Positions 8,361 to 26,909 of a stretch of 64,000 nucleotides of DNA are shown here, one piece after another. How positions within the stretch are numbered: the stretch's first letter is position 1; every line of letters starts with the position of its first letter. The DNA comes from Kiritimatiellota bacterium (lineage in GTDB: Bacteria; Verrucomicrobiota; Kiritimatiellia; RFP12; UBA1067). The notes below the pieces were generated by a model, which was not told where the DNA came from, did not search any database, and saw only the letters and a list, made by a program, of their open reading frames with translations. The position numbers and the translations under genes are program-made. Location: NCBI GenBank assembly GCA_009778475.1, contig WRJS01000002.1:3836-67835 (forward strand). The letters run 5' to 3'.

Positions 8361-8585
8361 TCAGAAAGTGATTATCATACCTGTTTTGCCCTGCTACCGC
8401 AAACAAAACCACAGAGGTCTCTCTATTTTTTTATCCACAGATGACAGCGTGTGTTGCCGCGAGATAAGGGTAACACCTCGAGCCTCTATGGAATGCGGCG
8501 GGTTCCCCTTTGACCTTTGTGCCTTTGTGTGAGATTATTCATCCACGTTTGGTCTCCGCGCGAAAACACCTTGGGCATGAAGGGC

Positions 8586-11500: not shown

Positions 11501-12452
11501 AGAACTCGCCGTTGACCAGCTGCCGCACGACGTACCCCTCCGCGTCCCTGATGTTCAGCGAGACATACCCGTCCTCTGGTGCCTCAAACGTGATGTCGGT
11601 GAAACCCTCGCGCGCACCTTTCGCATCGAGCAGCCCCGTCCAGTCGATCACCGGCGCACCGCCCTCCATCGACACCTTGAACTCGCGGTTGTCCGCCAAG
11701 CGCAGCGGCTGCGGCTCCACGCCCCCCTTGTCCGCGAGCGTCGCGAACCCCCAGACCCCGCGCGCGTGGAACGTGAACACGCGATCCACCGTCACCCCCG
11801 GCCGGAAGATGTCCTTCAGCGAGATGCGGTAGCCCGCCGCCGTGTTGAAATTCGGCTCCACCGAGAAGAGTATCTTCATCCCCGCCTGCGCCGCCAGCCC
11901 GCCCTCGCGCAGGACTTTCCACGGCAGCGCGATCTCCTGCACATAGCCCTTGCCGTCCGCGTCCACGGTGAACGCCTGTTTCGCGCCCTTGGCCTTCGCG
12001 TCCTTCAGGGCTTCCCCGTTCTTGTTCGGGAAGTCGATGTCGATGACGTCCTTGCCGTCGCGGTCGCGCCACGCCGTGACCCAGCAGACCGGGGCCTCCT
12101 GCCGCTCGGGGTCCGCGACGATGCGCATCTGGAGCGCGTCGCCGCCCCAGCCGGGATCCCCCGCGACCGTCCCCGGGTTGCTCAGCGGCGTCTCATCCTT
12201 GAACCGCGCCAGCACATACAGGTTATCCTTGTCCCACATCGCGTGTATCCACACGGCGATCTTGTCGCGCTGCGTCTCCACGTCGCCGCAGACGAACACC
12301 CCCCCGCTCAAATCCCAGCCCTCGGCCGTGCCGTCGATTTTCAGCCCCCCCGGCGCCGGAAGCACGCGTATGTTCAGGTTCTCCGTCTCCGTCGCCCAAA
12401 GCCCCCCCGCAAGGCACACCCCCGCGATAAAACGCATCATAACGCTCTTCAT
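8586..12452 (-). CDS. large secreted protein with CBM9-like/DOMON-like terminal domains and a central beta-propeller region
   Basis: Signal peptide (MRFIAGVCLAGGLWA). The N-terminus (GWDLSGGVFVCGD...) and C-terminus (EFAIGYDDAMLYLGWKVTDATPW) resemble carbohydrate-binding family 9-like modules. Repeated Gly/Trp/Tyr-rich blades lie between. The + strand 1416-aa ORF is low-complexity shadow. Confidence 0.7.
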   Translation of the reverse strand: MKSVMMRFIAGVCLAGGLWATETENLNIRVLPAPGGLKIDGTAEGWDLSGGVFVCGDVETQRDKIAVWIHAMWDKDNLYVLARFKDETPLSNPGTVAGDPGWGGDALQMRIVADPERQEAPVCWVTAWRDRDGKDVIDIDFPNKNGEALKDAKAKGAKQAFTVDADGKGYVQEIALPWKVLREGGLAAQAGMKILFSVEPNFNTAAGYRISLKDIFRPGVTVDRVFTFHARGVWGFATLADKGGVEPQPLRLADNREFKVSMEGGAPVIDWTGLLDAKGAREGFTDITFEAPEDGYVSLNIRDAEGYVVRQLVNGEFYAKGKHTVPWDGLTNMSHLKPGEPVPEGAYTWEAIFHTGIGLRLVGWADNAGRTPYDSPGGNWGGDMGNPSALATDGESMYLGWNCSEAGKALVCADFEGNVKWRHKRGGFGGAAHVALDNGMAYVYDWQDDGVIYRISTAKSDYINFEGSSLATVAVGKGLVGLDAYDGNLYLAQSNTVRVLSAKTGKQAKSIPVRDIINLTVAPDGTLYALANDEMRLETKKGVTTFQEFKASVLEVKPDGTTAVRIEGIINATCLTVDAEGNFYVGVRDPDNQVKVFNKDGKAKRAIGKKGGRPLFGPWKKDGMRFIAAVRLDKHGTLWVAEQDDHPKRFSCWDAATGKFIREFFGPTHYGAPGGAISPADPLVMAGSGCEWKLDKATGRAVCVGVFHRGECGTCRFSRGDNGRLYVAVSGDYHGYQPVYIYERLAPGDYRLRARLDALADKIGGNGHPNGKISGIRIWSDANGDGIEQPGEVTEQMVELGGWVSGWYMPMTPGLTFYGGLYRIAPTGWTKCGAPRYDLTKATRLPAPEDIERRGGMGAQRGIGSADGSLVLYNGHYGVNHSDFPCYDIASGKLKWTYPNNYVGVHGGHNAPPAQPGMINAAYDIVGVGKLPAPIGNFFVIATDKGMWHILTEGGFYLTQLFESDAAKISFPEAAVPGAVTDNIPPGMGAEDFGGSVTIADDGHLYLQAGKTAYVNHRVTGLDTVRALQGGTLTLTAQDLPRVMEIRDKLAQAGVGARLATAKKHSVTNFTGDIRRDFNVRELMKFEKKPTDRVEFAIGYDDAMLYLGWKVTDATPWATNGASEAAEMYSRGDTVDFQLGTDASADRKRTAPVLGDLRISIGNLKGTPAAVLFKPVSDEKRPRKFYSGVIRDGYEMQCVKTLDNAKIEVKATPGRDYIVQAAIPLKDIGFTPAPGTTYTGDIGATFGDPEGAKTILRSHWSNQATGIVADDVFELKLEPKNWGQILFE

Positions 12453-12769
12453 AATCGATACTCCTTAATGAATACCGGCAAGTATATCAATACAACGCGC
12501 CGACAATCAAGGAGTAAGTGGCGGAGGAGGAAGGAAGCGAGTAAGGCCCCCGCCCACAGTCAGGAATACGGTAACGGGAAAAACAGCGGAAAGTGTTGTT
12601 TTCTGTTGGCGATGTGCGTCGGGCCGGGGCGATGCCGGACTTCCCGCACCCTTTCCGAGGGGGCATTTAATATTTGGGATTTCCGCCTCAAAACGGTGTT
12701 GACAACACACTCAGAAAAGCGCATACTTTCATCATGCTTTAAATTCGCATTTCGAGAAAGGGTGTAAGT

Positions 12770-15700
12770 ATGAACATGAAGTGTATGGTGGTGTGCGGTG
12801 TGTTGGCGTGTGCGTTGCTTGCGGATGCGCAGGTCTTGACGTGGGACGGGGCGGGCGGCGCGAAGTGGGATGCGTCGTCGGTGAATTGGCTGGATGAGAG
12901 CAGCCAGCCGTCGGCGTGGGTGCCGGGGGCGGTGGCGAAGTTCGACGGCGGCGGAGGGTTCGTGGAGGTGGCCGCGGATGTGTCGGCGGGCGGCATCACG
13001 TTCGCGTCGGGCGGCTACACGCTGGCGGGGTATGGGCGCATCCGGCTGGAGGGCGATCTCTTCGTCGCGGGGGGCGCGACGAACAGCGTGGGCGCGGAAA
13101 TTTTCTCGGCAAGCGGCATCGCGAAAACGGGCCTGGGCGCGGTGGCGCTGGGGCAGTGCGTGGGCAAGGTGACGGTGAGCGCGGGCGACTTGCTGGCGAT
13201 GGCGTCGCAGTTCGCGGACGCGCAGGTGGCGGTGTCGGCGGGGGCGCGGATCGTGACGGCGGGCGCGCCGCGCGCGGGGAACCTCGTGCTGGACGGCGGC
13301 TTCGAGATGTTCGGCCTTGATGACGGCACGTTCCGTTATGCCGACAATGCGGCGGGGCTGAATTTGGGCGCGTGGGTCACCGCGATGCCGGATCTGGTGG
13401 CGGGGCAGAACGTCGCCACGAAGGCGGCGCTGAACTCGCCCGGGACCGCGACGGAGGGGGTCCATGCGCTGGCCCTGCAGTATAACGGCGTGGTGGCGCA
13501 GACGGTGGCGGTGGCGCAGGGGGGATGGCATCAGATCGCGTTCGATCATTTCCTGCGCAGGGGTTACGCGGAGACGCTTGTTTTTGTGACGCTGGATGAT
13601 GCGCCGGTGGCGTTGCTGCTCAACGACGCGGTGGAGTCGAACGCGTGCCGCTTCGTGAGCGTGCCGTTCTGGCTGGCGCCGGGGGCGCACACGCTGGGGC
13701 TCGCGGGGGAGGGGTTCTGGGGCGACCGCATGTCGATAATTGACGACGTGGTGCTGGCGCCCGCGTTCGCGTCGGCGGCGGCGTGCCTGTCGCTGGGCGG
13801 TGATTCGGAGGTGGCGCTCGCGGCGGGCGCGGCGGCGGTGCTGGGGCATAGCGGCACGCTGGGCGTCGCGAGACTGGATGTCAATGGCGGCGCGTCGGTC
13901 ACGGGCGCGGGCGCATGGGCGGAGACGGTGACGGGGCTGTGGTTCGAGTACGCGAACAGCGCGTGGGCACCGCCGCTGGCGATGGGCGAGGACGCGCTCC
14001 TGCGTTTCCGCGAGGACGCTTCGGAGGAGGTCGAGGGCGTGGCGCGGCGCGTGTGGGTGTCGGGCGCGCCGGGGGGCGTGGCGCTCACGGGCGAGGGCCT
14101 GACGCTGATGAACACGGCGGCGGCGGGGTCGGTGCATTGCACGGTCAGCGATTTGAGCGCGGTGACGGTGGGGGCGCCGATGACGCTGAGCATGCCGACC
14201 CTATTCGACATTTTCGGCTCGCTGACGTTTGCGGATAACGTCTCGTCGAATATGCCGTTCTTCAAGCGCGGCTTCGGGGAGATGACCCTCACGCAGCCGA
14301 TCATGCAGCAGGTGGGGCGCTTCACCGTGCTGGAGGGGCGCGTGAGCCTCAACCACATCAACGCGCAGGCCGGCACCTCTACGCCGACGGACCGTTTCTT
14401 CGGCGGCTACATCTGGGCGCAGTCCCAGCCGGGGCGCGTGGCGGAGGTGCGCCTGACGCAACCGGACGTGACGCACGCGCTGGGCGTGGTGTTCGCCGGT
14501 TCGGGCCGGGCCGTGGTCACGACCGCGCTCGGCGGCAGGACGGTCAGCATCGGCCACCCGCGCTCGCTGATGCCCACGCCCGCGGAGTTCCTCGTGCCGG
14601 GCGGCGACACGCTGAGCATCCGCCAGTTGCTCTACCCTTACAGTTTCGGGCGGGACAGGTCGGGCGGCCTGCTCAAATCGGGCCCCGGCGTGCTGGAGAT
14701 CCGCGAGGGCGGTTACGACACGGGGAACAGCCGCGCGCACACCGGCCGCGTCATCCTGCGCAACGGGACGCTGCGCGTGCTGGCGGACGATGTCGGCAAC
14801 CTGAACGGCGGCACGCTGGCGTACAACGGCATGGCGCCGAGCGGGCGCGGCGGCTCGCTGGGCCTGACCCCGTTCTCCACGGCGATGTGGATCGGCGACG
14901 ACGAGACCCAGCCGCTGGACGACCTGACCTTCACCGCCGCCGGCAACAAGCGCTACATCGGCCGCGACATCGAGGTGTTCGACGTCGGCAACGACGTGCG
15001 CTTCGAGGTGGAGAACAGCACGGACACGCTGTTCGACGGGACGCTCACCCTGCATCGCGGCGTGACGTTCGCGGGGGCCAACGACGCGCACCTGCGCCTG
15101 AACCGCGTCACGGGCGCGGGATCGGCGGTCGCGCTCGCGCTCGAGGGCTTCTCGCACGTCACCGTCTCCGACACGCTGGACGGCGGCATCGACCTGGACA
15201 TCGGCGGCAGGACGCTGGTCATCGGCCCGGAGCAAGTGGCCGTCGCGGCCCTCGGCGCGTTCGCGGCGAACGGCGCGACGCTGGACATCAATCTCGCGGG
15301 CGGGACGTGCAGCCGCATCGAGGCGGGCGACGCCACGCTCGGCGCGGTCGCGTTCAACCTGTACTATCTAGGCTCGAAGGTGCCGTTCGCCGAGCCCGGC
15401 GTCTATACGCTGGTGACCTGCTCCGGCACGTTGACGGTGAACATCAACGCCCTGTCCGTGGCGAACGAGATGCCGGGATTCGCGTATGCGTTCAGCGCGG
15501 CGGGCGGCGCGCTCACCCTCACGATACAGAGCGACACCCCGGCCACCTTCACGGCATGGGCGCACGCCGAGGGCGGCCCGTGGGACACGGGCGCGAACTG
15601 GAACCCCGCGACCGCGCCGGACGACGCGGCGCTGTCCGTGCTGATGGGCGGGGCCATCACCAATGCTGCGGAGGTCGTGCTCAACGCGCCCTACACCGTC

Positions 15701-18700
15701 GGCTCGCTGATGTTCAACAACCCGCTGCTGGGCTACACGCTGGACGGCGACGCGCTCACGCTCGGGCGGATCGACGTGCTGACCGGCCCGCACACCATCA
15801 AGAACGCGCTGGTCAATTCCGGCCCGCTGGCCGTCGCGGTGGCGGGCGGCAAGTTGACGCTCGGCGGCTCGGCGACGGTGCTGCCGCAGGTGCTGCTGGA
15901 GCAGGGCACGCTGACCGTCGGCGGCGCGGACGTCACGCTCGCCGCCAGCATCGAGGGCGCGGCCGGCACGGCGCTCGCGTTCGAGGACGGCGCGAAAGCG
16001 ACCGTGAGCCTGCCCGCGGGCGGGACGTTCAGCGGCGCACTCAAAGGCCCGGCGGGCGCGGCGCTCGTCAAGGACGGCCCCGGCCTCTGGACGCTGGACG
16101 GTTACGACTCGCTCTATTTCGGCGCGTTCAGCCAGGCCCTCGGCAACACAAGGCTGGAGGGCGTGTCGCTGTTCGGGCCGGTCACGACTGAGGCCGGCAC
16201 GGCGCTCACCGTCGCGCCCGCCGCCACGGACGGCCTGATGGGCTACTACTACCACATCGGCGACCGGACCACCCTCAATTCATACTCCAACGCGTTCCTC
16301 TCGGTCGCGACGCTGGAGGCGGTCATCGCCACGCGCACGCCCGACCTGATCTCCCCGAGCGGGCTGGACGGCGAGAACTTCGACTACCCCATCGCGGAGA
16401 ACCTGACCCTGAGGTTACCCTACCCGTTCGGCACCGACGGCGTCTCGCCCGGCCCGTGCCAGTACGACTTCATCGCGGTCTGGCGCGGCAGCATCACGCT
16501 CCCCGAATCGGGCCGCTACAGTTTCACGCTGCAAGCGGACGACTTCCCCCTCGTGGTGATCGACGGCAACGTCCTCTTCTCCAACAACCGCTGTGAGAAC
16601 GCCACCACCACCTACGCCAGCGCCGTCGAACTCGGGGCCGGCCGCCACGACATCTTCATCGGGCTGGGGCAGGGCGGCGGCGTTGCGGGCATCCGCCTCC
16701 TCGTGCATTGCCCGTCGGACGAGATCGGCCAGGCGCACATCCCCATCCCGAACAGTTGGCTCTCACCTGTGTCCGCGCTCGGCTCCATCAACGGCGCGGG
16801 CGCCGTGGCCGTGCAGGCCAACGCCAGCGCGATTGTCGGCGCGAAGGGCGCCAGCGTCGTGAACGGGACGCTGACCACGGGCGCGGGCAGCCTCCTCACG
16901 AAGGCGGGCGGCGACCTGCTCGACCTCCCCAACGGCGCGGCGAACCAGATCGCGGGCGCAATGACCGTCCTCGGCGGCAAGGTCACCCTCACCGCGCAGG
17001 GCCAGTTGGCCGCGGCCAGCCGCGTGGTCGTGGGCAGCGGCGCCACCCTCGCCGTGCAGGCCCCGCAGGCCATCAGCGGCCTCGAAGGCCGCGGGAACGC
17101 CTCGCTCGGCGGCGCAGACGAGGTGTGCGTGGATATGTTCGCGTTCACCGACGAGAGCGACAGCGGCATCTCGGACCAGAAGACCTACACCCACGCCGTG
17201 AGCATGCCCACGAGCGAGGCGGGCGTGACCGTCAACGGCGTACCCTTCACCACCGGCGACGCGGGCTGGGTGCGGGGGCCGAACTTCCCCACCTCCACGG
17301 CAGGGCCCAACGGCGGCAACACATCCATGGAGCAACTGCTCAACCGCCTCTACTACAACCAGACAGACTACACCTTCACCCTCACGGGCCTGCAGCCCTT
17401 CACGGCGCACGAGTTCCGCATCTACAACCGCGCCTACACCCTCAACGACATGCGCATGGCCACCTACACGTTCAGCGTCAACGAGGCCGTGCTCGGCTCG
17501 GTCTCCTACAACGAGGACAGCATCGTGCGCAGCATCGTGCGCTGCCGCTACATCACCGACGCGGCCGGGACGCTCACCGTGCGCGTGCAGTCCTTCAGCA
17601 CGGCGACCGCCCACCTCTACGCATTCTCGAACGAGGTCATCGGCCGCAACATCCAGGCCCCCGGCGAGGTGACGCTCACGCTGTCGCCCCCGGCGGGCGC
17701 TGAACTCTCCACCGCCGCCCCATTCTTCGGCAGTGGCACGGTCGTGAAGGACGGCGCCGGCCTCCAGCGCTTCGGCGGCGCGAACACCGCGCACGGCGGC
17801 CTGACCGTGCTGGACGGCGAGGCCGTGCTGAGCGCGGGCGCGTCCGTCGCCAGCGGCCTGTCCATCGCGCCGGGCGCGGGCGTCACCGTGCCGAACGGCC
17901 ATGTCGCGCTCGGCGGCCTGAGCGGCGGCGGCGGCACGTTCGACCTGCCGAGCGACACCATCGTCCGCGCGCAGGGCATCTACATCCATTACTTCACGAA
18001 CGACGTGCAGACCCAAATCTCGCCCGCCAAAACCTACACCCACGCGCTGGACTTCGGCAACAGGGATGGTCTGCCGGCCGATGTCCCCGGCGCGGAGGTG
18101 AACGGCGTGACCTTCCTGAAGGCCAGAAACAGCGGCTCATCCAGCGGCTATGGCTGGAGCGGCATCGGCAGGCAATTCAATCACGTCGGGAACACCGCGC
18201 ACGGGAACGTGATCGCGGACGACCAGGCGGTGTACCAGTTGCTGAGGGACATGGTGTGGGAGAACGTGGCGGGCGACGTCGGCACCCTCACGGGCCTGAC
18301 CCCCGGCAAAACATACGAGGTGCGCTTCTACAATCGCTGGTGGGGGGTCGGCGGCAACCGCTCGCAGACCGTCCACTTTGTCACCGACGCTACGGAGAAC
18401 ACCGTCTCCTTCAACGTGGACGGCTTGTACCCGCACTTCCTCGCCTATCGCTACACCGCGCCCGCCTCCGGCACGCTGAACATCATCTTCTACCCGGAAG
18501 TTTCCGGCAGCACCTGGCACATCTACGCGCTCACCAACGAGGAGGTCGATGAGCACACCGAGCCGTTGCCCGCCGAGACCGCCACCGTACCCCAGTGGGA
18601 GTACCCCGAGGAGACGCTCTACCAGCGCTTCTTCACGTGCGACGCGGACACCCAGATATCCACCCTGAAACGCTACACGCACAAACTCGACTTCGGGGTC

Positions 18701-19831
18701 CGGGGCGGAACCACGCAAGGGAAACCCGGCGCGACTGTCAACGGCGTGACCTTCGTCAAGGGCGGGCCCTACGGCACGACCTTCACCGAAGGCCGCCTCT
18801 ACGGCTGGCGCGGCTTCGGGGGGGGCAACGGCAACCACGGCGGCGGGAATGCAGGCTACAGCGGGATTGCGCAATCGCAAGGCCTCTACGCCCTCCTCAC
18901 GGACATGACGCACAATACGCAGAACGCCACCGCCTACCTCACCGGACTGACCCCCGGCAAACAGTACGAGGTGCGCATCTACAACCGCACATGGGATATG
19001 GGTAACGTCCGCACGCAGACCGCCACCTTCACCGCCGGGCCCGGGACATCTGAAACCATCACCTTCGACTTGGACCGTCTGGCGGCGCACTTCCTCGCCT
19101 ACCGCTACACCGCGCCCGCCGACGGCCGCCTGACCATCCAGTACACCTCCGCCACCGTCGCCACGTGGCACATCTACGCGCTCACCAACGAGGAGGTCTA
19201 TGACCCCGCCAAGGACATCGTCATCATCGACGTGGCGAACCGCACCGACACCTTCGGCGGCGACGTGACCGGCGGCCAGCGCTGGGAGAAGCGCGGCAAC
19301 GGCACCCTCCTGCTCACCGGCAACAGCACCGCCACCGGCCCGCTCACCGTGCGCGGCGGCGCCCTCGGCGTGGACCTCAACGGCATCGCCACCCTCGGCC
19401 CCGTCCTCGTGCAGGACGCCCTGCTCTTCGGCCACGGCACCTTCGGCGGCGACGTGTTCATCGCCTCCAACGCATGGCTGCACGCCGGGACGCCCGCCGC
19501 GTGCGGGCTGCTCACCGTCGGCGGCCGCCTGACCCTCGAGGACGATGCGCGGCTCGACTGGCGCTACGGCGCAAAGCCCGCCGCCGACACCTTCGCCGTC
19601 GGCGCCCTGACCCTGCCCGCTGAAGGGACGTTCCACACCGCCCCCCTCGCCCCCGGCGCGACCCCGCCCGCCAAGCACGTCGTCTTCGACTCCGCCACCC
19701 CCATCAACGGCCCCGCCGACCTCTCCGGCTGGGACATCACCGACATCAAAGGCGCGAAACTCGAATACAACACCGCCCGCACCCAAATCCTCTTCCGCAG
19801 TTCACGCGGGACGATCATCATGCTGCGGTGA
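12770..19831 (+). CDS. giant secreted protein (2353 aa): PATR-type N-terminus, PA14-like domain, three ~190-aa tandem repeats, shared C-terminal domain
   Basis: Signal peptide, then VLTWDGAGGAKWD...NW...PGAVAKFDGGG (autotransporter-associated beta-strand-repeat pattern). PA14-like GRYSFTLQADDFPLVVIDGNVLF. Three diverged repeats each ending HIYALTNEEV. Ends ...SRGTIIMLR. Confidence 0.8.
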   Translation: MNMKCMVVCGVLACALLADAQVLTWDGAGGAKWDASSVNWLDESSQPSAWVPGAVAKFDGGGGFVEVAADVSAGGITFASGGYTLAGYGRIRLEGDLFVAGGATNSVGAEIFSASGIAKTGLGAVALGQCVGKVTVSAGDLLAMASQFADAQVAVSAGARIVTAGAPRAGNLVLDGGFEMFGLDDGTFRYADNAAGLNLGAWVTAMPDLVAGQNVATKAALNSPGTATEGVHALALQYNGVVAQTVAVAQGGWHQIAFDHFLRRGYAETLVFVTLDDAPVALLLNDAVESNACRFVSVPFWLAPGAHTLGLAGEGFWGDRMSIIDDVVLAPAFASAAACLSLGGDSEVALAAGAAAVLGHSGTLGVARLDVNGGASVTGAGAWAETVTGLWFEYANSAWAPPLAMGEDALLRFREDASEEVEGVARRVWVSGAPGGVALTGEGLTLMNTAAAGSVHCTVSDLSAVTVGAPMTLSMPTLFDIFGSLTFADNVSSNMPFFKRGFGEMTLTQPIMQQVGRFTVLEGRVSLNHINAQAGTSTPTDRFFGGYIWAQSQPGRVAEVRLTQPDVTHALGVVFAGSGRAVVTTALGGRTVSIGHPRSLMPTPAEFLVPGGDTLSIRQLLYPYSFGRDRSGGLLKSGPGVLEIREGGYDTGNSRAHTGRVILRNGTLRVLADDVGNLNGGTLAYNGMAPSGRGGSLGLTPFSTAMWIGDDETQPLDDLTFTAAGNKRYIGRDIEVFDVGNDVRFEVENSTDTLFDGTLTLHRGVTFAGANDAHLRLNRVTGAGSAVALALEGFSHVTVSDTLDGGIDLDIGGRTLVIGPEQVAVAALGAFAANGATLDINLAGGTCSRIEAGDATLGAVAFNLYYLGSKVPFAEPGVYTLVTCSGTLTVNINALSVANEMPGFAYAFSAAGGALTLTIQSDTPATFTAWAHAEGGPWDTGANWNPATAPDDAALSVLMGGAITNAAEVVLNAPYTVGSLMFNNPLLGYTLDGDALTLGRIDVLTGPHTIKNALVNSGPLAVAVAGGKLTLGGSATVLPQVLLEQGTLTVGGADVTLAASIEGAAGTALAFEDGAKATVSLPAGGTFSGALKGPAGAALVKDGPGLWTLDGYDSLYFGAFSQALGNTRLEGVSLFGPVTTEAGTALTVAPAATDGLMGYYYHIGDRTTLNSYSNAFLSVATLEAVIATRTPDLISPSGLDGENFDYPIAENLTLRLPYPFGTDGVSPGPCQYDFIAVWRGSITLPESGRYSFTLQADDFPLVVIDGNVLFSNNRCENATTTYASAVELGAGRHDIFIGLGQGGGVAGIRLLVHCPSDEIGQAHIPIPNSWLSPVSALGSINGAGAVAVQANASAIVGAKGASVVNGTLTTGAGSLLTKAGGDLLDLPNGAANQIAGAMTVLGGKVTLTAQGQLAAASRVVVGSGATLAVQAPQAISGLEGRGNASLGGADEVCVDMFAFTDESDSGISDQKTYTHAVSMPTSEAGVTVNGVPFTTGDAGWVRGPNFPTSTAGPNGGNTSMEQLLNRLYYNQTDYTFTLTGLQPFTAHEFRIYNRAYTLNDMRMATYTFSVNEAVLGSVSYNEDSIVRSIVRCRYITDAAGTLTVRVQSFSTATAHLYAFSNEVIGRNIQAPGEVTLTLSPPAGAELSTAAPFFGSGTVVKDGAGLQRFGGANTAHGGLTVLDGEAVLSAGASVASGLSIAPGAGVTVPNGHVALGGLSGGGGTFDLPSDTIVRAQGIYIHYFTNDVQTQISPAKTYTHALDFGNRDGLPADVPGAEVNGVTFLKARNSGSSSGYGWSGIGRQFNHVGNTAHGNVIADDQAVYQLLRDMVWENVAGDVGTLTGLTPGKTYEVRFYNRWWGVGGNRSQTVHFVTDATENTVSFNVDGLYPHFLAYRYTAPASGTLNIIFYPEVSGSTWHIYALTNEEVDEHTEPLPAETATVPQWEYPEETLYQRFFTCDADTQISTLKRYTHKLDFGVRGGTTQGKPGATVNGVTFVKGGPYGTTFTEGRLYGWRGFGGGNGNHGGGNAGYSGIAQSQGLYALLTDMTHNTQNATAYLTGLTPGKQYEVRIYNRTWDMGNVRTQTATFTAGPGTSETITFDLDRLAAHFLAYRYTAPADGRLTIQYTSATVATWHIYALTNEEVYDPAKDIVIIDVANRTDTFGGDVTGGQRWEKRGNGTLLLTGNSTATGPLTVRGGALGVDLNGIATLGPVLVQDALLFGHGTFGGDVFIASNAWLHAGTPAACGLLTVGGRLTLEDDARLDWRYGAKPAADTFAVGALTLPAEGTFHTAPLAPGATPPAKHVVFDSATPINGPADLSGWDITDIKGAKLEYNTARTQILFRSSRGTIIMLR
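17144..19198 (+). repeat. three tandem ~500-570-nt coding repeats (A 17144-17642, B 17991-18547, C 18628-19198)
   Basis: Protein repeats are about 190 aa. Each starts [FY]FT.D..TQIS..K.YTH.LDFG and ends LTGLTPGK.YEVR.YNR.W...QT..F...HFLAYRYTAPA.G.L.I....WHIYALTNEEV. Confidence 0.7.
19380..19831 (+). other. shared C-terminal ~120-150-aa domain ending ...SRGTIIMLR (paralogous copy at about 23620..24022 ending ...SRGTILMLK)
   Basis: Alignable blocks: ARLDWRYG..DTFAVGALTL vs ARLAVDYSGGLRPLVFASGELTL; GWDITDIKGAKLEYNTARTQILFRSSRGTIIMLR vs GWTLTGGINGATFRLDPAAYRVNLKLSRGTILMLK. Confidence 0.6.
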
Positions 19832-20038
19832 CGGCTGGGCAGCAGGCCGACGGGGTGGTTCCAGATGGGTGGTTCCCGTGGGCGAGGCGTTCTCGCGTGA
19901 CACCATCAGGTTAAACCACAATAAAACCCACTGCATTTAAAAAGTGCGGGGCGAGCGTTTTTTGCTTTTCAGTTCGCGGGAATGTAGTACACTACTCCCG
20001 TGTAACTTGGCAAAGATTGAACTGAAGTGAGGTGAGCG

Positions 20039-23000
20039 ATGAAATCGATTCCGTTTGTGAATGTGTGCGTTGGGTTGGCGGTGCTGGCGTGTGGCGGGAG
20101 GACGGCTGTTGCGGCGGATGTGTTCTGGTGCGGCGCGGAGGGGCCGGACTGGCACGCCGCGGCCAACTGGGAGGACGGCGCCGTGCCGGGGGTGTCGGAT
20201 GTGGCGGTCTTCGATCCGGGGCAGTGCGCGATCGGCTGCTGGGCGTTTAACGTGAGCAACCGCGTGGAGGTGGCGGGGCTGAGGTTCGCGGGGCTGCCGC
20301 GCGCGGTGCTGGGCAGGGGCGTGGGGGACGGCGCGTTGGCGATCGGCGCGGGTGGCGTCGTCGTCGCGGACGGGATGGTCACGCTGGAGATGCCGCTGGA
20401 GCTGGGCGCGTCGCAGGCGTGGACGGTGGCGGAGGGCGCGGAACTTTTGGCGACGGGGGCGATGTCGCTGTACGGCGAGCCGGTGCTGACGAAGGACGGC
20501 GGGGGGCGCGTGTGGCTGACGGGGCCGGGGGCGCTCGCGGGGCGTTTCCGCGTCGCGGCCGGGACGCTGAAAACGTCGCGGGACGCGGAGGCGCCGGTGA
20601 CGGAGGGGCTGGCGGTGTGGCTGGACGCGGCGGCGACGGATACGGTGGTCACGAACGGCGCGGGGGAGATGACGGCGTGGCTGAGCCGCGTGGGCGGGTC
20701 GGCGATGGCGGCGGTGCCGGGCGGCGGGCCGCGGTGGGTGGCGGACGCGCTGGCGGGGCGGCCGGCGGCGCGGTTCAGCAACGCCTCCAATCAGGGGATG
20801 GTGATGGAGGCGGGGTACGCGAACACCACGAATTGCGCGACGGCGTTCATCGTGGTCCAGCGCCGCCCGGAGCAGAAGGACAACGCGGGCCTGCTGTCAA
20901 TCTACAGGGGCGGGGAGCAGGATTACGACCAGTACCACGCGGGGGTCTTTTTCCACCTTCCGGGCGCGGCCCCGCACCGCTCGGTGAAGGGGTACAGGAA
21001 GAGCGAGGACGGGGGGCACGCGTATTTCCCGTTCGAGACGCCGGTCTGCTTCATGTCGCGGTATGACGGCGTGTCGCACGTCATCGCGCAGGACAACCCG
21101 TTTCAGCGCGGGACGACTGGCACGCACACGAACATGTTCCTCCCGTTCGATGCCGACCGCGTGGTGCTGGCGAACCGCGCGGCGCCGGCCAACGGCTTCA
21201 ACTACCCGTTCAACGGCGACATCTCGGAGGTGCTGCTGTACAACCGCGTGCTGACCGAGGCGGAGGAGCGCCACGTGTTCGCGTACCTCAACGGGAAGTG
21301 GGGCGTGGCGCCGTCGCTGGAGGCGACGCTGAAGAAGGCGGCGGCGCATTTCGACGCGTCGCAGCCGGAGACGGTCGCGACGAACACGCTGGGCGAGGTG
21401 CTGGCGTGGACGAACCTCGTCTCGCTGGAGAACAGTGAACTGGTGCCGGTGACGGAGGGGCAGAACCCGCTGTATGTGGAGGGGACCATTCCGGCGGTGC
21501 GGTTCGACAAGAACCTGACGAACGCGCTGCACATGCGGCCGAACTGGGGCTACCTGAACGGCTCGCGGACGGCGACGCTGTTCGCCGTGGTGACGCCGCG
21601 CGGGGAGCAGATCTCGTATGCGGGGGTCGCCTCCATCGGGCGGCTGGCGGGGGGCACTTCGGATCACGGGACGGCGGGGTGCGCGGCCTTCCTGCGGCTC
21701 GATAACCAGAATAACGAGATCTGGATGGGCGAGCAGGGCGGGCGGAGCCTGGGCGGCGCGCATGTGCCGCCAGGGCGGGTGTCGGTCGTGATGTCCAGTT
21801 TCGACAATGGGATGCACGCGGTGTGCGTCAACGGTGCGCTCGGGAGGGCGCCGAGCATGAAGGACGTGACGTTCGAGGCGAATTACCTGCGGCTGGGCAA
21901 CCGCATTGCGGGCAACGCGGGCGACGGCGTCTTCACGTTCAACGGCGATGTCCACGAGGTGCTGGTTTTCAACTGCCCGCTGTCGGAGGGCGAGATCGCG
22001 GAGATCACGGCGCTCCTGAATGAGAAGTGGCGCGGGCTGGACGAGATTGAGGATCTGCTCGCGGATGCGGAGGTGCGTTTCGATGCGTCGGACGAGGGGT
22101 CGGTGACGACGAACGCGCTGGGGGTCGTGACGGCGCTGCGCAACCTGAACGCGGATTCCGTCGCGGAGATTCCCGCGTTCGGCGCGTGCGACGGGCCGCT
22201 GTATGTGGACGACGCGATGAACGGGCTGCCCGTGCTGAGGTTCAGGGGCGCGCTGAGCAACGCGCTGCTGATGACCTCCGGCTACGCGAACACGAATGCG
22301 GCCCTGACGGCGTTTGCGGTCGTGCGCTGCACCGAGAACAGCAGCACGGACGCGGGCCTGCTGACGATCGTGCGGCACGATATGCTGGACTATCGCTACG
22401 CGAACAGCGCGGTGGTCATGTTCAACCGCACGGGCAGGTACGACGGCTGGGCGGGGTACCGCGACAACGAGGAGCGGGCGAAAATCAACGACGTGCCGTT
22501 CGGCGCCCCGTTCCTGCTCATGTCGCGCTTCGACGGCATGAAACACACGCTCATGCTGAACAACGGCCACAGCGCGAGCGTGGCGATGGTCGGGCGCTTC
22601 GACGCGGACCGCCTCCTGCTGGGCGCGCGGCAACTTTACGGCCCGGACGACGTTGTGGAGTTCCGCTCTTTCCTGTCCTGCGATCTGGCCGAGATGCTGG
22701 TGTACAACCGCGTCGTCACGCCGACGGAGGCCGACGCCATCCATGCGTACCTGCGCGAGAAGTGGTACCCCGAGATGCTCCCGGACGCGCTGCCGGAATT
22801 GCTGGACACCGCGCTCGTGTGGCTCGACGCTTCCGACGCGGCCACCGTGACGGCCGCGCCTGACGGCCGCGTGACCGCATGGGCCAACCGCAACGACGGC
22901 GCCGCCGTGTTCGTCCCGCCGCCGGGATGTGGCGGCCCCGCCCTCGTCACCGACAACATGAACGGCCGCCCGGTGCTGCGCTTCGACAAAGACCTCGCGC

Positions 23001-24022
23001 CGCAACAGATGCTGTGGTGCGACTCGGGGTATGCGCTCACCACGACCGCCGTCACCGCCGTCGTCCTGATGCGGCCGCGCGAGGACCTGCTCAACAACGG
23101 GCGCCTCATGGCCACATGGCGCGACACCGGCCCCGACTTCAACTCCCTCGACGGCGCGACGCTCCTCTACTACACCGCCGGAAACGGGGGGCGCTGGCAG
23201 ACCCACCACATGAACCAATCGAAATCATACTGCACAAACGTGCTCCCCGAAACCCCCACCTGCCTCATCTCGCGCTTCGACGGCTACAACCACCGCATCA
23301 TCAAGGACGGCACGGAACTGTGCTCCGTCGAGACGGCCGTGAGCGCGTTCAACGCGAACCGCCTCGCCATCGGCGGCCGCCGCTCCGCACAACAGAACGA
23401 GAACGAGTGGTACAACGGCGACGTGGCCGAGGTGCTGGTCTTCGACTACGCGCTCACGCCCGGCCAGTACCAGACCCTGATGAAATACCTGACGCAAAAA
23501 TGGCTCGCGCCGACGCCGCCCGAGCCATGGGATGCCGGGAAGGACATCGAGGTCTGCGCGGACGCGCTGCTCGACACGCGCGGCGCGGCGGCCCTCGCCC
23601 TCTCCGGCGGCGACGCGCTGTACGGCGCCGGAACAATCCTCGGCGACGTGACCGTGGGCGACGGCGGCCGACTGTCCGCCACCGGCCCGCAGCTGACCAT
23701 TGACGGCGACTTGGCGATGCAGGGCGGCGCGCGTCTGGCGGTCGATTACAGCGGCGGTCTGCGCCCGCTGGTCTTCGCCTCCGGGGAACTGACACTGGCG
23801 GATCTGAACGTCCTCGCCAGCGCGATGGAGCAGGTCGCCGGCGCCTCGACGCTCACCCTCCTGCAAGGCGGCACCGGCTGGAGCGACGGCGACGGCAACG
23901 CCCCCGACCCCGCTGGCTGGACGCTCACCGGCGGCATCAACGGCGCCACCTTCCGCCTCGACCCCGCCGCCTACCGCGTCAACCTCAAACTCTCACGCGG
24001 CACGATCCTGATGCTGAAATAG
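20039..24022 (+). CDS. secreted protein (1327 aa): PATR-type N-terminus, four LamG-like (concanavalin A-like) domains, shared C-terminal domain
   Basis: Signal peptide. DVFWCGAEGPDWHAAANWEDGAVPGVSDVAVFDPG. Four domains ending FNGDISEVLLYNRVLTEAEERHVFAYLNGKW, ...LLNEKW, ...YLREKW, ...YLTQKW (the Laminin_G_3 signature). Ends ...SRGTILMLK. Confidence 0.8.
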   Translation: MKSIPFVNVCVGLAVLACGGRTAVAADVFWCGAEGPDWHAAANWEDGAVPGVSDVAVFDPGQCAIGCWAFNVSNRVEVAGLRFAGLPRAVLGRGVGDGALAIGAGGVVVADGMVTLEMPLELGASQAWTVAEGAELLATGAMSLYGEPVLTKDGGGRVWLTGPGALAGRFRVAAGTLKTSRDAEAPVTEGLAVWLDAAATDTVVTNGAGEMTAWLSRVGGSAMAAVPGGGPRWVADALAGRPAARFSNASNQGMVMEAGYANTTNCATAFIVVQRRPEQKDNAGLLSIYRGGEQDYDQYHAGVFFHLPGAAPHRSVKGYRKSEDGGHAYFPFETPVCFMSRYDGVSHVIAQDNPFQRGTTGTHTNMFLPFDADRVVLANRAAPANGFNYPFNGDISEVLLYNRVLTEAEERHVFAYLNGKWGVAPSLEATLKKAAAHFDASQPETVATNTLGEVLAWTNLVSLENSELVPVTEGQNPLYVEGTIPAVRFDKNLTNALHMRPNWGYLNGSRTATLFAVVTPRGEQISYAGVASIGRLAGGTSDHGTAGCAAFLRLDNQNNEIWMGEQGGRSLGGAHVPPGRVSVVMSSFDNGMHAVCVNGALGRAPSMKDVTFEANYLRLGNRIAGNAGDGVFTFNGDVHEVLVFNCPLSEGEIAEITALLNEKWRGLDEIEDLLADAEVRFDASDEGSVTTNALGVVTALRNLNADSVAEIPAFGACDGPLYVDDAMNGLPVLRFRGALSNALLMTSGYANTNAALTAFAVVRCTENSSTDAGLLTIVRHDMLDYRYANSAVVMFNRTGRYDGWAGYRDNEERAKINDVPFGAPFLLMSRFDGMKHTLMLNNGHSASVAMVGRFDADRLLLGARQLYGPDDVVEFRSFLSCDLAEMLVYNRVVTPTEADAIHAYLREKWYPEMLPDALPELLDTALVWLDASDAATVTAAPDGRVTAWANRNDGAAVFVPPPGCGGPALVTDNMNGRPVLRFDKDLAPQQMLWCDSGYALTTTAVTAVVLMRPREDLLNNGRLMATWRDTGPDFNSLDGATLLYYTAGNGGRWQTHHMNQSKSYCTNVLPETPTCLISRFDGYNHRIIKDGTELCSVETAVSAFNANRLAIGGRRSAQQNENEWYNGDVAEVLVFDYALTPGQYQTLMKYLTQKWLAPTPPEPWDAGKDIEVCADALLDTRGAAALALSGGDALYGAGTILGDVTVGDGGRLSATGPQLTIDGDLAMQGGARLAVDYSGGLRPLVFASGELTLADLNVLASAMEQVAGASTLTLLQGGTGWSDGDGNAPDPAGWTLTGGINGATFRLDPAAYRVNLKLSRGTILMLK
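20600..23503 (+). other. four consecutive LamG-like domains within the 20039..24022 gene
   Basis: Domain ends at about 21305, 22030, 22765 and 23503, marked by NG[DK]..E[VM]L[LV][YF]N..L[ST]..E...[LY]...W. Confidence 0.65.
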
Positions 24023-25369: not shown

Positions 25370-26092
25370 TCAATCAATCCCCTTTGTCCCTTTGCAGTCC
25401 GGGTAGCCTGTGCACCCCCAGAACAGGCCTTTTGCGGATTTGCGTTTCTTCATGGGTTTTCCGCAGGAGGGGCAGGCGGGGGCGTCTTCTTGGCTTGCCC
25501 TTGCTTCGACACGGATTGCTGTCAGCTTTTCACGGAAGCCGCCTTCTTCTTTGAAACGTCTGCCCTGCGCTTCCAGTTGATGGCTCAGCATGTTCAATGT
25601 CCGCGCGCTCAAGATCAGCAGGGTGTTAGCAACCGTCGTGGCATCTTCCGCGTTGAGCCATTGGGCAAACCTGCGCTTCTGCTCGAGGATGTGTGAGCAA
25701 GCGTCATGCACGATGTCCGGACCATAAGCTGGCGCATCTAAGCGGAGTGCAAAAATGGTCTGCGCCTCGCCCGAGTCTTTGCGCCACGGGACATGGCCAT
25801 GACGCATCAGCCAGTTCAAGAAGTCGCCGTGAAGTTCCGTCAGGCTCGCGCGCGCCACGTCTGTGAGTTTCATTTCGGTTTCCTTGGATGTCGCGCCACG
25901 GGCAGAGCCCTCTGCGATATTTGCGCATCCTGAGCGCGCCGCCTGGGTCATCTGGTCAGACAGGCGACCGCAAGGGTCATTCGTGCGGTTCAGGAAACGG
26001 AGGCAGAAGTCCTGCGTCGCCAGATAGACGACATTCGCCAGCACCCACGAATCCAGCCGGAAGTGCCCGACGGTTCCGCCAAACATACTCAT
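25370..26092 (-). CDS. four-helix-bundle protein (23S rRNA-intervening-sequence/Avd-like fold) fused to a C-terminal topoisomerase-type C4 zinc ribbon
   Basis: ANIAEGSAR and surrounding helices match the 'four helix bundle protein' family. C-terminal CPSCGKPMKKRKSAKGLFWGCTGYPDC matches zf-C4_Topoisom. Start at internal MSMFGG (AGGAAC RBS). The upstream track extension translates element B2. Confidence 0.6.
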   Translation of the reverse strand: MSMFGGTVGHFRLDSWVLANVVYLATQDFCLRFLNRTNDPCGRLSDQMTQAARSGCANIAEGSARGATSKETEMKLTDVARASLTELHGDFLNWLMRHGHVPWRKDSGEAQTIFALRLDAPAYGPDIVHDACSHILEQKRRFAQWLNAEDATTVANTLLILSARTLNMLSHQLEAQGRRFKEEGGFREKLTAIRVEARASQEDAPACPSCGKPMKKRKSAKGLFWGCTGYPDCKGTKGID

Positions 26093-26099
26093 GGTCTTG

Positions 26100-26262
26100 T
26101 TCCTTTCTTTTTCGTTTTGGGTTGGGGTTGATTGTTTTTTTCGATTGAAATCGACTGATGGCGACGGATGTCGATTGAAATCGAATACTCGGCTTAAGCC
26201 GAAGTCAGTCGCCATCAGTCGATTTCAGTCGAAAAAAACAATCCCCAGCGTCTCCGCCGTCC
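26100..26262. repeat. family-B composite repeat element B2 (near-perfect palindrome including flanking T7/A7 runs), overlapping the rnhB stop
   Basis: gggttggggttgattgtttttttcgattgaaatcgactgatggcgacggatgtcgattgaaatcgaatactcggCTTAAGccgaagtcagtcgccatcagtcgatttcagtcgaaaaaaacaatc. The rnhB stop (26205-26207) lies about 10 nt from the palindrome centre. Confidence 0.75.
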
Positions 26263-26909
26263 CATCCGCCAAACCCCGGCAGCCGCTGCTCAACATCCTG
26301 CACGGGGCGGAAGGTGCGGCGGTGTTCGGGGCAGGGGCCGTGCTTGTGGAGGGCGGCGATATGCTCGCTCACGCCGTAGCCTTTGTTCGCGTCGAAGCCG
26401 TAGTGCGGGTATTGCGCGTGGAGGCCGCGCATGAGGCGGTCGCGGGAGACTTTGGCGATGACGCTGGCGGCGGCGATGAGGAAACTCTTGGAGTCGCCGC
26501 GCACAATCGGCGTGGAGGGACAAGGCAGGCCCTTCACGGCAAGGCCGTCAACCAGCGCATGGTCGGCCTTCACCGGCAACGCCGCGATCGCGCGGCGCAT
26601 GGCGGTGTGGGTGGCGACGAGGATGTTGAGGCGGTCGATCTCCTGCGCGGTGGCGGCGCCGACGCCCCATGCCACGCCGTCGGCCTGCGTCAGTTGCGCG
26701 AAGAACTGCTCGCGCTGGGCGGGCGTGAGTTGCTTGGAGTCCGTGAGCCCCGCGAGCGGGCCGGCGTACAATTCTTCGGCCCGTTCGGGGGGCATGGAGA
26801 CCGCGCCCGCGACAACGGGACCTGCGAGGCAACCACGCCCAGCTTCGTCCACCCCGGCGAGGATGATGGCGGGCGACGATGCCCAGAGTCTTCGTTCGTA
26901 GCTCAGCAT
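26205..26909 (-). CDS. rnhB: ribonuclease HII
   Basis: ILAGVDEAGRGCLAGPVVAGAV N-terminal catalytic motif and DSK...RNase HII core. The last ~15 codons run into repeat element B2. Confidence 0.85.
   Translation of the reverse strand: MLSYERRLWASSPAIILAGVDEAGRGCLAGPVVAGAVSMPPERAEELYAGPLAGLTDSKQLTPAQREQFFAQLTQADGVAWGVGAATAQEIDRLNILVATHTAMRRAIAALPVKADHALVDGLAVKGLPCPSTPIVRGDSKSFLIAAASVIAKVSRDRLMRGLHAQYPHYGFDANKGYGVSEHIAALHKHGPCPEHRRTFRPVQDVEQRLPGFGGWDGGDAGDCFFRLKSTDGD

What the first reader, a model, noticed from the sequence alone, without database searches (positions are those of the whole stretch)
19380..24022. Shared C-terminal domain ending ...SRGTI[IL]ML[RK]-COOH on two adjacent giant PATR proteins: possible novel sorting or secretion tag
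The 2353-aa and 1327-aa proteins have unrelated middles (PA14 plus novel repeats versus 4x LamG). They share PATR-type N-termini and an alignable last 120-150 aa finishing with the strictly similar ...LFRSSRGTIIMLR and ...LKLSRGTILMLK. This is too short for a classical autotransporter barrel (about 250-300 aa). It is not PEP-CTERM (no PEP or TM-Arg cluster) or LPXTG. It superficially resembles the logic of T9SS or type I C-terminal signals but in a non-Bacteroidetes-like, high-GC genome. It may mark cargo of an undescribed export or anchoring pathway.
Basis: seen in the sequence. Interest (0 to 1): 0.7.

Follow-up and report, generated by a model that had tools for sequence, protein, structure and literature searches.

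The report
Barrel-less autotransporter-like proteins with C-terminal tag
Two neighbouring giant surface proteins end in the base module of an autotransporter passenger but have no membrane barrel; instead they finish with a nine-residue motif (..P/S-R-G-T-hydrophobic x4-R/K/Q) that recurs on many proteins of Kiritimatiellia, Lentisphaeria and Verrucomicrobiota and may be an undescribed sorting or anchoring tag.

Summary
ORF A (12770-19831, 2353 aa) and ORF B (20039-24022, 1327 aa) share their last ~140 aa (BLASTP E 4e-9) and end in SRGTIIMLR and SRGTILMLK.

The new part is the last nine residues, which have these properties:
- An exhaustive profile search found 159 relatives. In 106 of the best 150, Gly sits exactly 7 residues from the C-terminus.
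- Confirmed members come from Kiritimatiellia, Lentisphaeraceae and Verrucomicrobiota MAGs.
- Internal copies of the module lack the tail.
- Two homologues carry PEP-CTERM at the same position.
- An unrelated protein family keeps the same tail in four relatives.
- Both models leave the tail unpaired.

The tail is therefore a portable, strictly C-terminal element. I think it is most likely a sorting or anchoring signal, but this is unproven, and I found no candidate machinery. A purely structural terminal strand remains a serious rival. No Pfam or NCBIfam model and no paper I found describes the tail.

The parts
12699..12727 (+). Sigma-70-like promoter match upstream of gene A (weak evidence). 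No terminator-like site lies between A and B, so the two genes may be co-transcribed.
   Evidence: TTGACA-17-CATACT, 10 of 12 matches. Two promoter-like sites were found against 0.8 expected in shuffles.
12770..19831 (+). Gene A: a 2353-aa secreted PATR/beta-helix protein with a PA14 domain and three unassigned repeats. It has no beta-barrel.
12770..12829 (+). Signal-peptide-like N-terminus of A (MNMKCMVVCGVLACALLADA|QV). The Trp-rich unit-start motif follows it.
   Evidence: Read from the sequence. The orthologue P0001 starts MKRKCGLLCALALAGGFADAQVLTW. No signal-peptide predictor was available.
15509..15583 (+). Internal unit boundary in A: ...GGALTLTIQ-SDTPAT-FTAWAHAEGGPW. A module-like end runs straight into the next Trp-rich start motif, with no RGT tail.
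   Evidence: Read by eye, with partial profile hits nearby.
16430..16645 (+). PA14 domain of A (aa 1221-1292).
   Evidence: PF07691, E 2.8e-7.
19289..19366 (+). PATR (autotransporter-associated beta-strand) repeat just upstream of the terminal module of A.
   Evidence: PF12951 and TIGR02601 (E 1.9e-8).
19403..19801 (+). Terminal module of A (aa 2212-2344): beta-helix rungs plus a cap. It is homologous to the autochaperone/base region of autotransporter passengers.
19802..19828 (+). C-terminal tail of A: SRGTIIMLR-COOH (stop codon 19829-19831).
   Evidence: In the AF2 model the last 10 residues have no DSSP strand, and block-mean pLDDT falls from 85 (residues 131-140) to 77 (141-142).
20039..24022 (+). 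Gene B: a 1327-aa secreted protein with an N-terminal Trp-motif/PATR-like region, four LamG-like repeats, the terminal module and the tail.
20615..23524 (+). Four LamG-like (Laminin_G_3) repeats of B. They start near aa 193, 436, 679 and 927.
   Evidence: PF13385, E 1.1e-16. Repeat starts were read from the sequence.
23594..23992 (+). Terminal module of B (aa 1186-1318), with the same fold as in A.
23993..24019 (+). C-terminal tail of B: SRGTILMLK-COOH (stop codon 24020-24022).
   Evidence: In the AF2 model the last 9 residues have no DSSP strand, and the mean pLDDT of the final 10-residue block is 77.

Best explanation
A and B are Sec-exported, beta-helical, lectin-bearing surface proteins of a Kiritimatiellia-type anaerobe. 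They are built like autotransporter passengers but have no translocator barrel.

Their shared last ~140 aa has two parts:
1. The passenger base module: a PATR rung, autochaperone-like rungs and a hairpin cap. By analogy with autotransporters it probably nucleates and caps the beta-helix (inferred).
2. A nine-residue, strictly C-terminal tail, consensus [P/S]-R-G-T-hydrophobic-hydrophobic-x-hydrophobic-[R/Q/K]-COOH.

The tail sits where classical autotransporters continue into linker and barrel, and where some homologues carry PEP-CTERM.

I propose that the tail is a portable C-terminal recognition element specific to Kiritimatiellia, Lentisphaeria and Verrucomicrobiota. It would add as a beta-strand, or as a short hairpin with the preceding strand, to an envelope partner that is still unidentified. 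That step would retain the protein at the outer membrane or hand it over for translocation.

Shown here: the identity of the module, the absence of a barrel, and the tail's distribution, fixed register, portability and swap with PEP-CTERM.
Inferred: that the tail is recognised by anything, and how.
For: Module identity:
- AF2 models of both proteins are confident.
- Sequence profiles hit Ssp residues 477-537 and the NCBIfam EprS model in 41 of 57 members, best E 1.4e-13.
- The Ssp paper places PATR at residues 464-496, followed by autochaperone-like rungs and a beta-hairpin cap (PMC9977779).

No barrel:
- The proteins stop 9-10 aa after the cap.
- No autotransporter barrel hit was found.

The tail as a discrete element:
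1. In 106 of the 150 best relatives, Gly lies exactly at -7, followed by Thr (85 of 106), hydrophobic residues at -5, -4 and -2, a variable -3, and R/Q/K at -1. The Gly column is among the three most conserved of the whole domain.
2. Internal copies of the module in PVC proteins, and in barrel-bearing autotransporters, end at profile position ~130-137 without the tail.
3. P0114 and P0138 have the same module followed by PEP-CTERM at that exact point.
4. A 710-aa Verrucomicrobiota protein has no module and no Pfam hit but ends ...LWPRGSIFKIR. Three relatives at 57-88% identity end ...LWPRGSIYKMR...VYPRGTVFTFR and ...VYPRGTVYLIR.
5. In both AF2 models the tail is not paired as a strand with the domain.
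6. HMM-confirmed members are found in Kiritimatiellia, Lentisphaeraceae and Verrucomicrobiota MAGs. Several genomes gave two or three hits, often as adjacent genes.
Against: - No candidate receptor, sortase or transporter was found. No neighbour gene recurs among ~22 loci.
- The tail is almost always attached to the module. Other large exported proteins in the same window lack it.
- pLDDT of 77-85 for the tail suggests it may dock on the domain rather than hang free. I could not inspect the model coordinates.
- In classical multi-unit autotransporters a Gly-plus-strand (..NTAG-LTLNFWDG) also follows the module. The tail could therefore be the remnant of a junction strand with only a structural role.
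- Average conservation of the tail is no higher than that of the body: 1.84 versus 1.89 bits per column.
- Four to five hydrophobic residues are too few for a membrane anchor.
- Portability rests on one additional protein family.
Confidence: 0.5

Rival explanations
1. The tail is purely structural. It is the last strand of a small C-terminal hairpin that caps the open end of the terminal beta-helix module and prevents edge aggregation. It is conserved for folding only, with no sorting role. The proteins would reach the surface by a general route such as the type II secretion system.
For: - The tail follows a Gly turn after the last strand. The second family shows the same strand-PRG-strand layout (..TITLW-PRG-SIYKMR).
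- Classical autotransporter super-repeats also continue with Gly plus a strand after the module.
- Tail pLDDT of 77-85 is higher than expected for a free peptide.
- Other exported giants in the window lack the tail.
- Kiritimatiella has Sec, Tat and a T2SS (PMC5148204).
Against: - DSSP assigns no strand pairing to the tail in either model.
- Internal copies and PEP-CTERM variants of the module do without the tail.
- The absolute C-terminal register is kept in 106 sequences, with never a residue added.
- The same nonapeptide occurs after an unrelated, non-beta-helix context.
Confidence: 0.3
2. Split autotransporter. The tail, or the module plus tail, docks into a separately encoded Omp85/autotransporter-type barrel that translocates the passenger in trans, in the manner of two-partner secretion.
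For: - The passenger base and autochaperone are retained at the C-terminus, as in vectorial C-to-N secretion.
- The tail core G-x-x-hydrophobic-x-hydrophobic resembles the OMP beta-signal core (my own knowledge; not tested here).
- An Omp85-family TpsB gene lies 12 kb downstream.
Against: - That TpsB has its own TpsA with a TPS domain next to it.
- A and B have no TPS domain.
- No barrel gene recurs next to family members.
- The tail ends in R/Q/K, not an aromatic residue. The window's own TpsB ends ..LQLQF.
Confidence: 0.12
3. A local tandem duplication: the motif is a private feature of two paralogues.
For: The two genes are adjacent, and their C-termini are 31% identical.
Against: - 159 relatives exist among 50%-identity cluster representatives.
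- Members occur in three PVC lineages.
- The closest relatives of A (P0001) and B (P0002) are separate orthologues with the respective architectures.
Confidence: 0.01
4. Truncated or mis-called classical autotransporters whose barrel lies in another frame or downstream.
For: The passenger-type module is present.
Against: - The stop falls at the same residue in 106 independent sequences.
- Downstream of A there is a 207-bp gap and then gene B. Downstream of B lies hydE on the opposite strand.
- No barrel model hit was found.
Confidence: 0.02

Closest known systems
Type Va (classical) autotransporter passengers with PATR and an autochaperone region (Ssp, EprS, IcsA, Ag43, pertactin)
   Same: - Sec-type N-terminus and beta-helical passenger with PATR repeats.
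- It is detectable by sequence profile.
   Different: - There is no alpha-helical linker and no 12-stranded barrel. The protein ends 9-10 residues after the cap.
- The module body also occurs internally as the end of a repeat unit.
PEP-CTERM/exosortase-sorted PATR proteins of Verrucomicrobia and Planctomycetes
   Same: - Same kind of barrel-less PATR protein.
- Two homologues (P0114, P0138) carry PEP-CTERM exactly where A and B carry the tail.
   Different: - A and B have no PEP motif, no transmembrane helix and no Arg cluster.
- The tail has only 4-5 hydrophobic residues and one terminal basic or polar residue.
T9SS C-terminal domains (type A TIGR04183, type B TIGR04131) of Bacteroidota
   Same: - Same logic: a C-terminal signal on Sec-exported surface proteins.
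- The last strand can look alike. Chance pattern hits in Bacteroidota ended ..SGTVVLIR* and ..RGTLVKIK*.
- A T9SS-CTD-like domain was recently suggested for Akkermansia Amuc0953 (PMC13524802).
   Different: - No hit to T9SS CTD models.
- The fold here is a beta-helix end, not an Ig-like sandwich.
- The lineages concerned are not known to have a T9SS (my own knowledge).
Outer-membrane-protein beta-signal (terminal strand recognised by BAM/SAM)
   Same: Both have a short C-terminal strand with a Gly-x-x-hydrophobic-x-hydrophobic core in a fixed register (the motif is recalled from the literature and was not tested here).
   Different: - There is no barrel to assemble.
- One extra terminal R/Q/K replaces the terminal aromatic residue.
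- Position -5 is also hydrophobic.

Membership tests
Classical (type Va) autotransporter | N-terminal Sec signal peptide | tested here: met
   Positively charged n-region, hydrophobic h-region and A-x-A-like cleavage sites were read in A, B and full-length relatives. This was by inspection only; no predictor was available.
Classical (type Va) autotransporter | Beta-helical passenger with PATR repeats and an autochaperone-like C-terminal base | tested here: met
Classical (type Va) autotransporter | C-terminal linker plus 12-stranded beta-barrel translocator (PF03797 / TIGR01414 barrel, about 250-300 aa) | tested here: not met
   Both proteins stop 9-10 aa after the cap. Pfam and NCBIfam gave no barrel hit on the full proteins. 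The relatives stop at the same residue.
PEP-CTERM / exosortase substrate | PEP motif, transmembrane helix and Arg-rich end at the C-terminus | tested here: not met
   Absent from A and B. Present instead of the tail in homologues P0114 and P0138.
T9SS cargo (CTD type A or B) | About 80-aa Ig-like C-terminal domain matching TIGR04183 or TIGR04131 | tested here: not met
   No such NCBIfam hit at E <= 1 for A, B or the 57 members. The predicted fold is a beta-helix.
Two-partner secretion exoprotein (TpsA) | N-terminal TPS domain (PF05860) and a cognate TpsB | tested here: not met
   A and B have no TPS domain. The TpsB/TpsA pair at 36341-44802 is a separate system.
Type I secretion (RTX-type) substrate | No Sec signal, Ca-binding nonapeptide repeats and an uncleaved C-terminal signal | tested here: not met
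   N-terminal signal peptides are present and there are no RTX or HemolysinCabind hits.
New 'RGT-tail' C-terminal motif family (proposed here) | [P/S]-R-G-T-hydrophobic-hydrophobic-x-hydrophobic-[R/Q/K] ending exactly at the C-terminus of a Sec-exported protein from Kiritimatiellia, Lentisphaeria or Verrucomicrobiota | tested here: met
   A ends SRGTIIMLR and B ends SRGTILMLK. 106 of 150 relatives share the register. A second protein family carries the same tail.
New 'RGT-tail' C-terminal motif family (proposed here) | The tail is required for sorting or anchoring and is recognised by dedicated machinery | not testable with these tools
   This needs genetics or proteomics, or whole-genome phylogenetic profiling. 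No conserved neighbour gene was seen.

The most novel reading that the evidence does not exclude
The nonapeptide, with or without the preceding strand, is a new class of C-terminal sorting signal in Kiritimatiellia, Lentisphaeria and Verrucomicrobiota. An undiscovered envelope machine would read it and display barrel-less autotransporter-like adhesins and lectins, and some unrelated proteins, on the cell surface. It would be a functional alternative to the autotransporter barrel, PEP-CTERM/exosortase and T9SS.
Probability: 0.3. Interest if true: 0.85.

Novelty: new variant of a known kind. Interest (0 to 1): 0.6.

Why it matters
How Sec-exported proteins without a lipobox, barrel or known sorting signal reach or stay on the cell surface is unresolved in Verrucomicrobiota, Lentisphaeria and Kiritimatiellia. 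These lineages include gut and marine polysaccharide degraders and relatives of Akkermansia. A 2026 paper could only speculate about a T9SS-like system for a surface sulfatase of Akkermansia (PMC13524802).

A short C-terminal motif that is easy to search for would make the question testable. It marks many large lectin- and adhesin-like proteins, swaps with PEP-CTERM and moves between protein families. It would allow three things:
- defining the cargo set by regular expression or HMM;
- looking for the co-varying machinery;
- testing the motif with reporter fusions.

It also shows that the autotransporter passenger base, including the autochaperone, is widely used without a barrel. That bears on whether this module serves folding or secretion.

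If the tail turns out to be only a capping strand, the result is still a useful annotation. These proteins should then not be called autotransporters or 'fibronectin-binding autotransporter adhesins', as some sources name them.

Tried and rejected
Searches that failed or were limited:
- The word-indexed protein search found nothing with the two-sequence profile or with B's C-terminus. With the 57-sequence profile it found only 6 hits, because low-complexity words filled the candidate cap. The exhaustive search was needed.
- An exact look-up of protein B found no record, so the source genome is not in that collection.
I used a hand-made degenerate DNA pattern instead. It samples only part of the family, and about ten of its 32 hits were chance matches.
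- The afdb50 fold library was not available.

Analyses that gave negative results:
- Clustering of neighbour genes over ~22 loci, and over the four loci of the second family, showed no recurrent partner gene.
- A 24-column profile of the hairpin plus tail found no C-terminal match in the PDB, so there is no link to Amuc0953 or any solved protein. The Akkermansia-MAG member also had no PDB relative.
- Pfam gave nothing significant for the module: AC_1 E 0.17, Pertactin E 0.13, DUF5649 E 0.0012.
- Literature searches for Kiritimatiellota, PATR, autochaperone or PEP-CTERM combinations found nothing on this motif.
- Rfam found nothing in the window.

Readings I rejected: lipoprotein anchoring (the orthologue P0001 has no lipobox Cys), LPXTG, T1SS, TPS, and a truncated classical autotransporter.
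Full report
**1. Observation**

The window holds two adjacent same-strand ORFs. A is 12770..19831 (2353 aa) and B is 20039..24022 (1327 aa).
- Their last ~150 aa align at 31% identity (BLASTP E 4e-9) and end in ..SRGTIIMLR* and ..SRGTILMLK*.
- A regex over all six frames finds no other such ending in the 64 kb.
- The middles differ. A has PA14 plus three unassigned repeats. B has four LamG-like repeats.
- Both N-termini look like Sec signal peptides followed by a Trp-rich motif, which is only weakly similar between the two (E 0.008).
- A promoter-like site precedes A, and no terminator-like site separates A from B.
- The finding's coordinates and description are correct.

**2. Source organism and setting**

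- The closest relatives of A are proteins of Kiritimatiellota MAGs: MCL1920485.1, and MCL2104951.1 'PA14 domain-containing'.
- The window has ~65% GC.
- It encodes HydE, which points to an anaerobe with [FeFe] hydrogenase. It also encodes an alginate-lyase-like protein, a CBM9 giant and a TpsB/TpsA pair.
- The protein itself is not in the large collection.
- Kiritimatiella has an ordinary diderm envelope with Sec, Tat and a T2SS (PMC5148204).

**3. How widespread the ending is**

Word-indexed searches failed. The exhaustive profile search over 1.84 billion cluster representatives gave 159 hits at E <= 1e-3, 30 at <= 1e-10 and 4 at <= 1e-30. Most cover the whole 143-column profile and end at the protein's last residue.

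Among the 150 best hits, 106 have Gly exactly at -7. In those 106:

| Position | Residues (count) |
|---|---|
| -9 | P 39, S 19 |
| -8 | R 43 |
| -6 | T 85 |
| -5 | L, V, I or M: 96 |
| -4 | I 54, L 22, V 11, F 10, M 6 |
| -3 | variable |
| -2 | I 33, L 26, V 21, F 13, M 7 |
| -1 | R 50, Q 18, K 9 |

Most of the remaining hits are fragments, barrel-bearing autotransporters that match only the first half of the profile, near-variants of the tail (for example ..TGLIVSFQ), or two PEP-CTERM proteins.

A degenerate DNA pattern (W-T-h-x-G, 16-24 codons, R-G-T-h-h-x-h-[RKQ]-stop) scanned over one genome per GTDB species gave 32 loci. A profile check confirmed members in:
- Kiritimatiellia MAGs: L009, L016, L021, L022 (two adjacent genes), L024;
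- Lentisphaeraceae MAGs: L006, L012, L018 (two adjacent genes), L023, L025, L026, L028, L033;
- Verrucomicrobiota MAGs: L005, L011, L032, and L017, which is labelled Akkermansia sp.

About ten hits outside these lineages were chance matches, several of them out of frame. Several MAGs gave two or three hits with a pattern that samples only part of the family. This is therefore a multi-copy family, not a private duplication.

**4. What the shared 140 aa is**

AlphaFold2 with a 57-sequence alignment gave a confident all-beta model for A (pLDDT 95.4, pTM 0.87). A second run for B gave pLDDT 83.4 and pTM 0.78.

Sequence evidence agrees.
- The family profile hits Ssp residues 477-537 (E 1.7e-4).
- 41 of 57 members hit the NCBIfam model of the autotransporter serine peptidase EprS (best E 1.4e-13). 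Three members hit TIGR01414.
- In Ssp this region holds the PATR motif (residues 464-496), followed by the last three rungs 'resembling an autochaperone domain' and a C-terminal beta-hairpin cap (PMC9977779).
- Pfam has no significant model for the module.

The barrel and linker that define an autotransporter are absent.

**5. The module is a repeat-unit end; the tail is an add-on**

I searched the profile against the full-length relatives.
- The module body also occurs internally in PVC proteins (P0075, P0085, P0095, P0007, P0047, P0083, P0089). There it ends at profile position ~117-134 (around 130 in most) and runs into a linker and the Trp-rich motif that starts the next unit, with no RGT tail.
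- It occurs many times inside classical barrel-bearing autotransporters (..vQTSvanQVNLvNTaG | LtLnFWDG..).
- Protein A itself has such a boundary at aa ~914-938.
- In P0114 and P0138 the terminal module is followed at that same point by PEP-CTERM (..GLNVVLAIPEPASLALLAAVALFCTGRRASRR).

The tail is therefore not needed for the module to exist. It appears only at a true C-terminus, in the slot used elsewhere by linker plus barrel or by PEP-CTERM.

In both AF2 models the last 9-10 residues have no DSSP strand, and block-mean pLDDT there is 77-85. I could not inspect the coordinates.

Per-column information shows the tail Gly (4.08 bits) among the three best-conserved columns, with G11 and W108. 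Thr scores 2.78 bits. The tail as a whole is no more conserved than the body (1.84 versus 1.89 bits).

**6. Portability**

Next to the family member in the Verrucomicrobiota locus L005 lies a 710-aa exported protein.
- It has two unassigned jelly-roll-like halves and DxDxDG motifs.
- It has no profile hit and no Pfam hit.
- It ends ..DLDHDGIADAVEILQYGSAMLWPRGSIFKIR*.

A metagenome scan found three relatives at 57-88% identity. They end ..TITLWPRGSIYKMR*..SIRVYPRGTVFTFR* and ..TIRVYPRGTVYLIR*. In L035 this gene again follows a module-bearing family member.

The same nonapeptide, in the same register, is thus conserved after an unrelated C-terminal context. Here it forms a strand-PRG-strand layout, so the portable unit may be a ~15-20 aa hairpin. 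Adjacent tail-bearing genes recur: the window, L018, L022, L005 and L035.

**7. Mechanism**

Shown:
- The proteins have N-terminal signal-like peptides.
- They have a passenger-like beta-helix with lectin domains (PA14, LamG).
- They have a passenger base module and no barrel.
- They have a strictly terminal, lineage-restricted, portable tail that alternates with PEP-CTERM.

Inferred:
- The module acts as folding nucleus and cap, as autochaperone regions do.
- The tail is a recognition or anchoring element, most simply by beta-strand addition to an envelope partner.

My estimates:
- about 0.5 for a sorting or anchoring signal of some kind;
- 0.12 for the specific 'split autotransporter / trans barrel' version;
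- 0.3 for a purely structural capping strand.

Points against the signal reading:
- no partner gene was found;
- the tail is nearly always coupled to the module;
- other exported giants in the window lack it;
- tail pLDDT is moderate to high;
- classical autotransporter units also have a Gly-plus-strand after the module.

The tail core G-x-x-hydrophobic-x-hydrophobic recalls the OMP beta-signal. This is from my own knowledge and was not tested. The tail carries one extra terminal R/Q/K, and the window's own Omp85-family protein ends ..LQLQF.

**8. Comparison with known systems**

- Not a classical autotransporter: barrel feature tested, not met.
- Not PEP-CTERM: not met in A and B, although homologues have it.
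- Not T9SS cargo: no CTD model hit, different fold.
- Not TPS, T1SS or LPXTG.
- The resemblance to T9SS is in logic only. Two chance pattern hits were real Bacteroidota CTDs ending ..SGTVVLIR* and ..RGTLVKIK*.
- A 2026 study proposes a T9SS-CTD-like domain and 'a comparable system' for the surface sulfatase Amuc0953 of Akkermansia (PMC13524802). A tail/hairpin profile found no such ending in any PDB sequence, so I see no direct link.
- No paper in the library mentions this motif.

**9. Verdict**

The 140-aa domain is a known autotransporter passenger module used without a barrel. The terminal nonapeptide is a real, widespread and apparently undescribed C-terminal motif with several hallmarks of a sorting or anchoring tag, but no demonstrated function or machinery.
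- Novelty: new variant of a known kind.
- Interest: 0.6.

Noticed in passing
window 36341-47533: A two-partner secretion pair lies here: TpsB (ShlB/Omp85, 805 aa, ends ..LQLQF) and a 2009-aa TpsA with a TPS domain and DUF5649 repeats. A 907-aa BspA-type leucine-rich-repeat protein follows. This system is separate from genes A and B.
   Followed up: partly
window 4125-6170 (- strand): A low-GC island (about 48% against about 65% elsewhere) holds several small ORFs. One is a 267-aa protein with an HNH-like endonuclease signature (..CAISR..HILPW..NGICLSRLHDAAFD). It looks like horizontally acquired DNA between the alginate-lyase-like gene and purB.
   Followed up: no
window 17183-19200 (protein A, repeat starts near aa 1472, 1755 and 1968): Protein A has three ~200-280 aa internal repeats (..K(T/R)YTH.(L/V)..VNGV.F...Y(E/.)(F/V)RIYNR...H(L/I)YA(F/L)(S/T)NE). 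No Pfam family matches above cutoff; there are only sub-threshold fn3 and Pur_ac_phosph_N hits. This may be an undescribed beta-sandwich domain.
   Followed up: no
window 48827-60057: A 592-aa exported protein has no family hit. A 3146-aa protein has only a sub-threshold PA14 hit. Both are large and uncharacterised, and neither carries the RGT tail.
   Followed up: partly
L005 4514-6646 (-); L034 3-1649; L035 889-4365; L036 1-3375: A second protein family has duplicated jelly-roll-like halves and DxDxDG motifs, with no Pfam hit. It carries the same PRG(T/S)-hydrophobic-R C-terminal tail without the beta-helix module. In L005 and L035 it lies directly after a module-bearing family member.
   Followed up: yes
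L013 71-1078 (-); L020 2713-4911 (-): Chance pattern hits in Bacteroidota appear, by sequence inspection only, to be T9SS C-terminal domains whose last strand ends ..RGTLVKIK* or ..SGTVVLIR*. The last strand looks much like the PVC tail, although the domains are unrelated.
   Followed up: partly
window 26316-26406: ARAGORN calls a tRNA-His of 91 nt, which is unusually long. It lies next to a four-helix-bundle protein gene with a C-terminal zinc-finger-like end (25370-26215). Rfam gave no hit at gathering score.
   Followed up: no
window 8517-12767 (+) and other long antisense ORFs (for example 20897-23218 -, 39058-43530 -): Very long ORFs lie opposite the real genes. Their translations are low-complexity and rich in Arg, Ala, Gly and Val. 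They are shadows of the high GC content, not genes. The real gene at 8586-12452 (-) encodes a CBM9-containing 1288-aa protein.
   Followed up: partly
P0158; P0164, P0053, P0166: Public sources name family members 'fibronectin-binding autotransporter adhesin' or 'autotransporter-associated beta strand protein', although these proteins have no barrel. This is likely systematic over-annotation.
   Followed up: no
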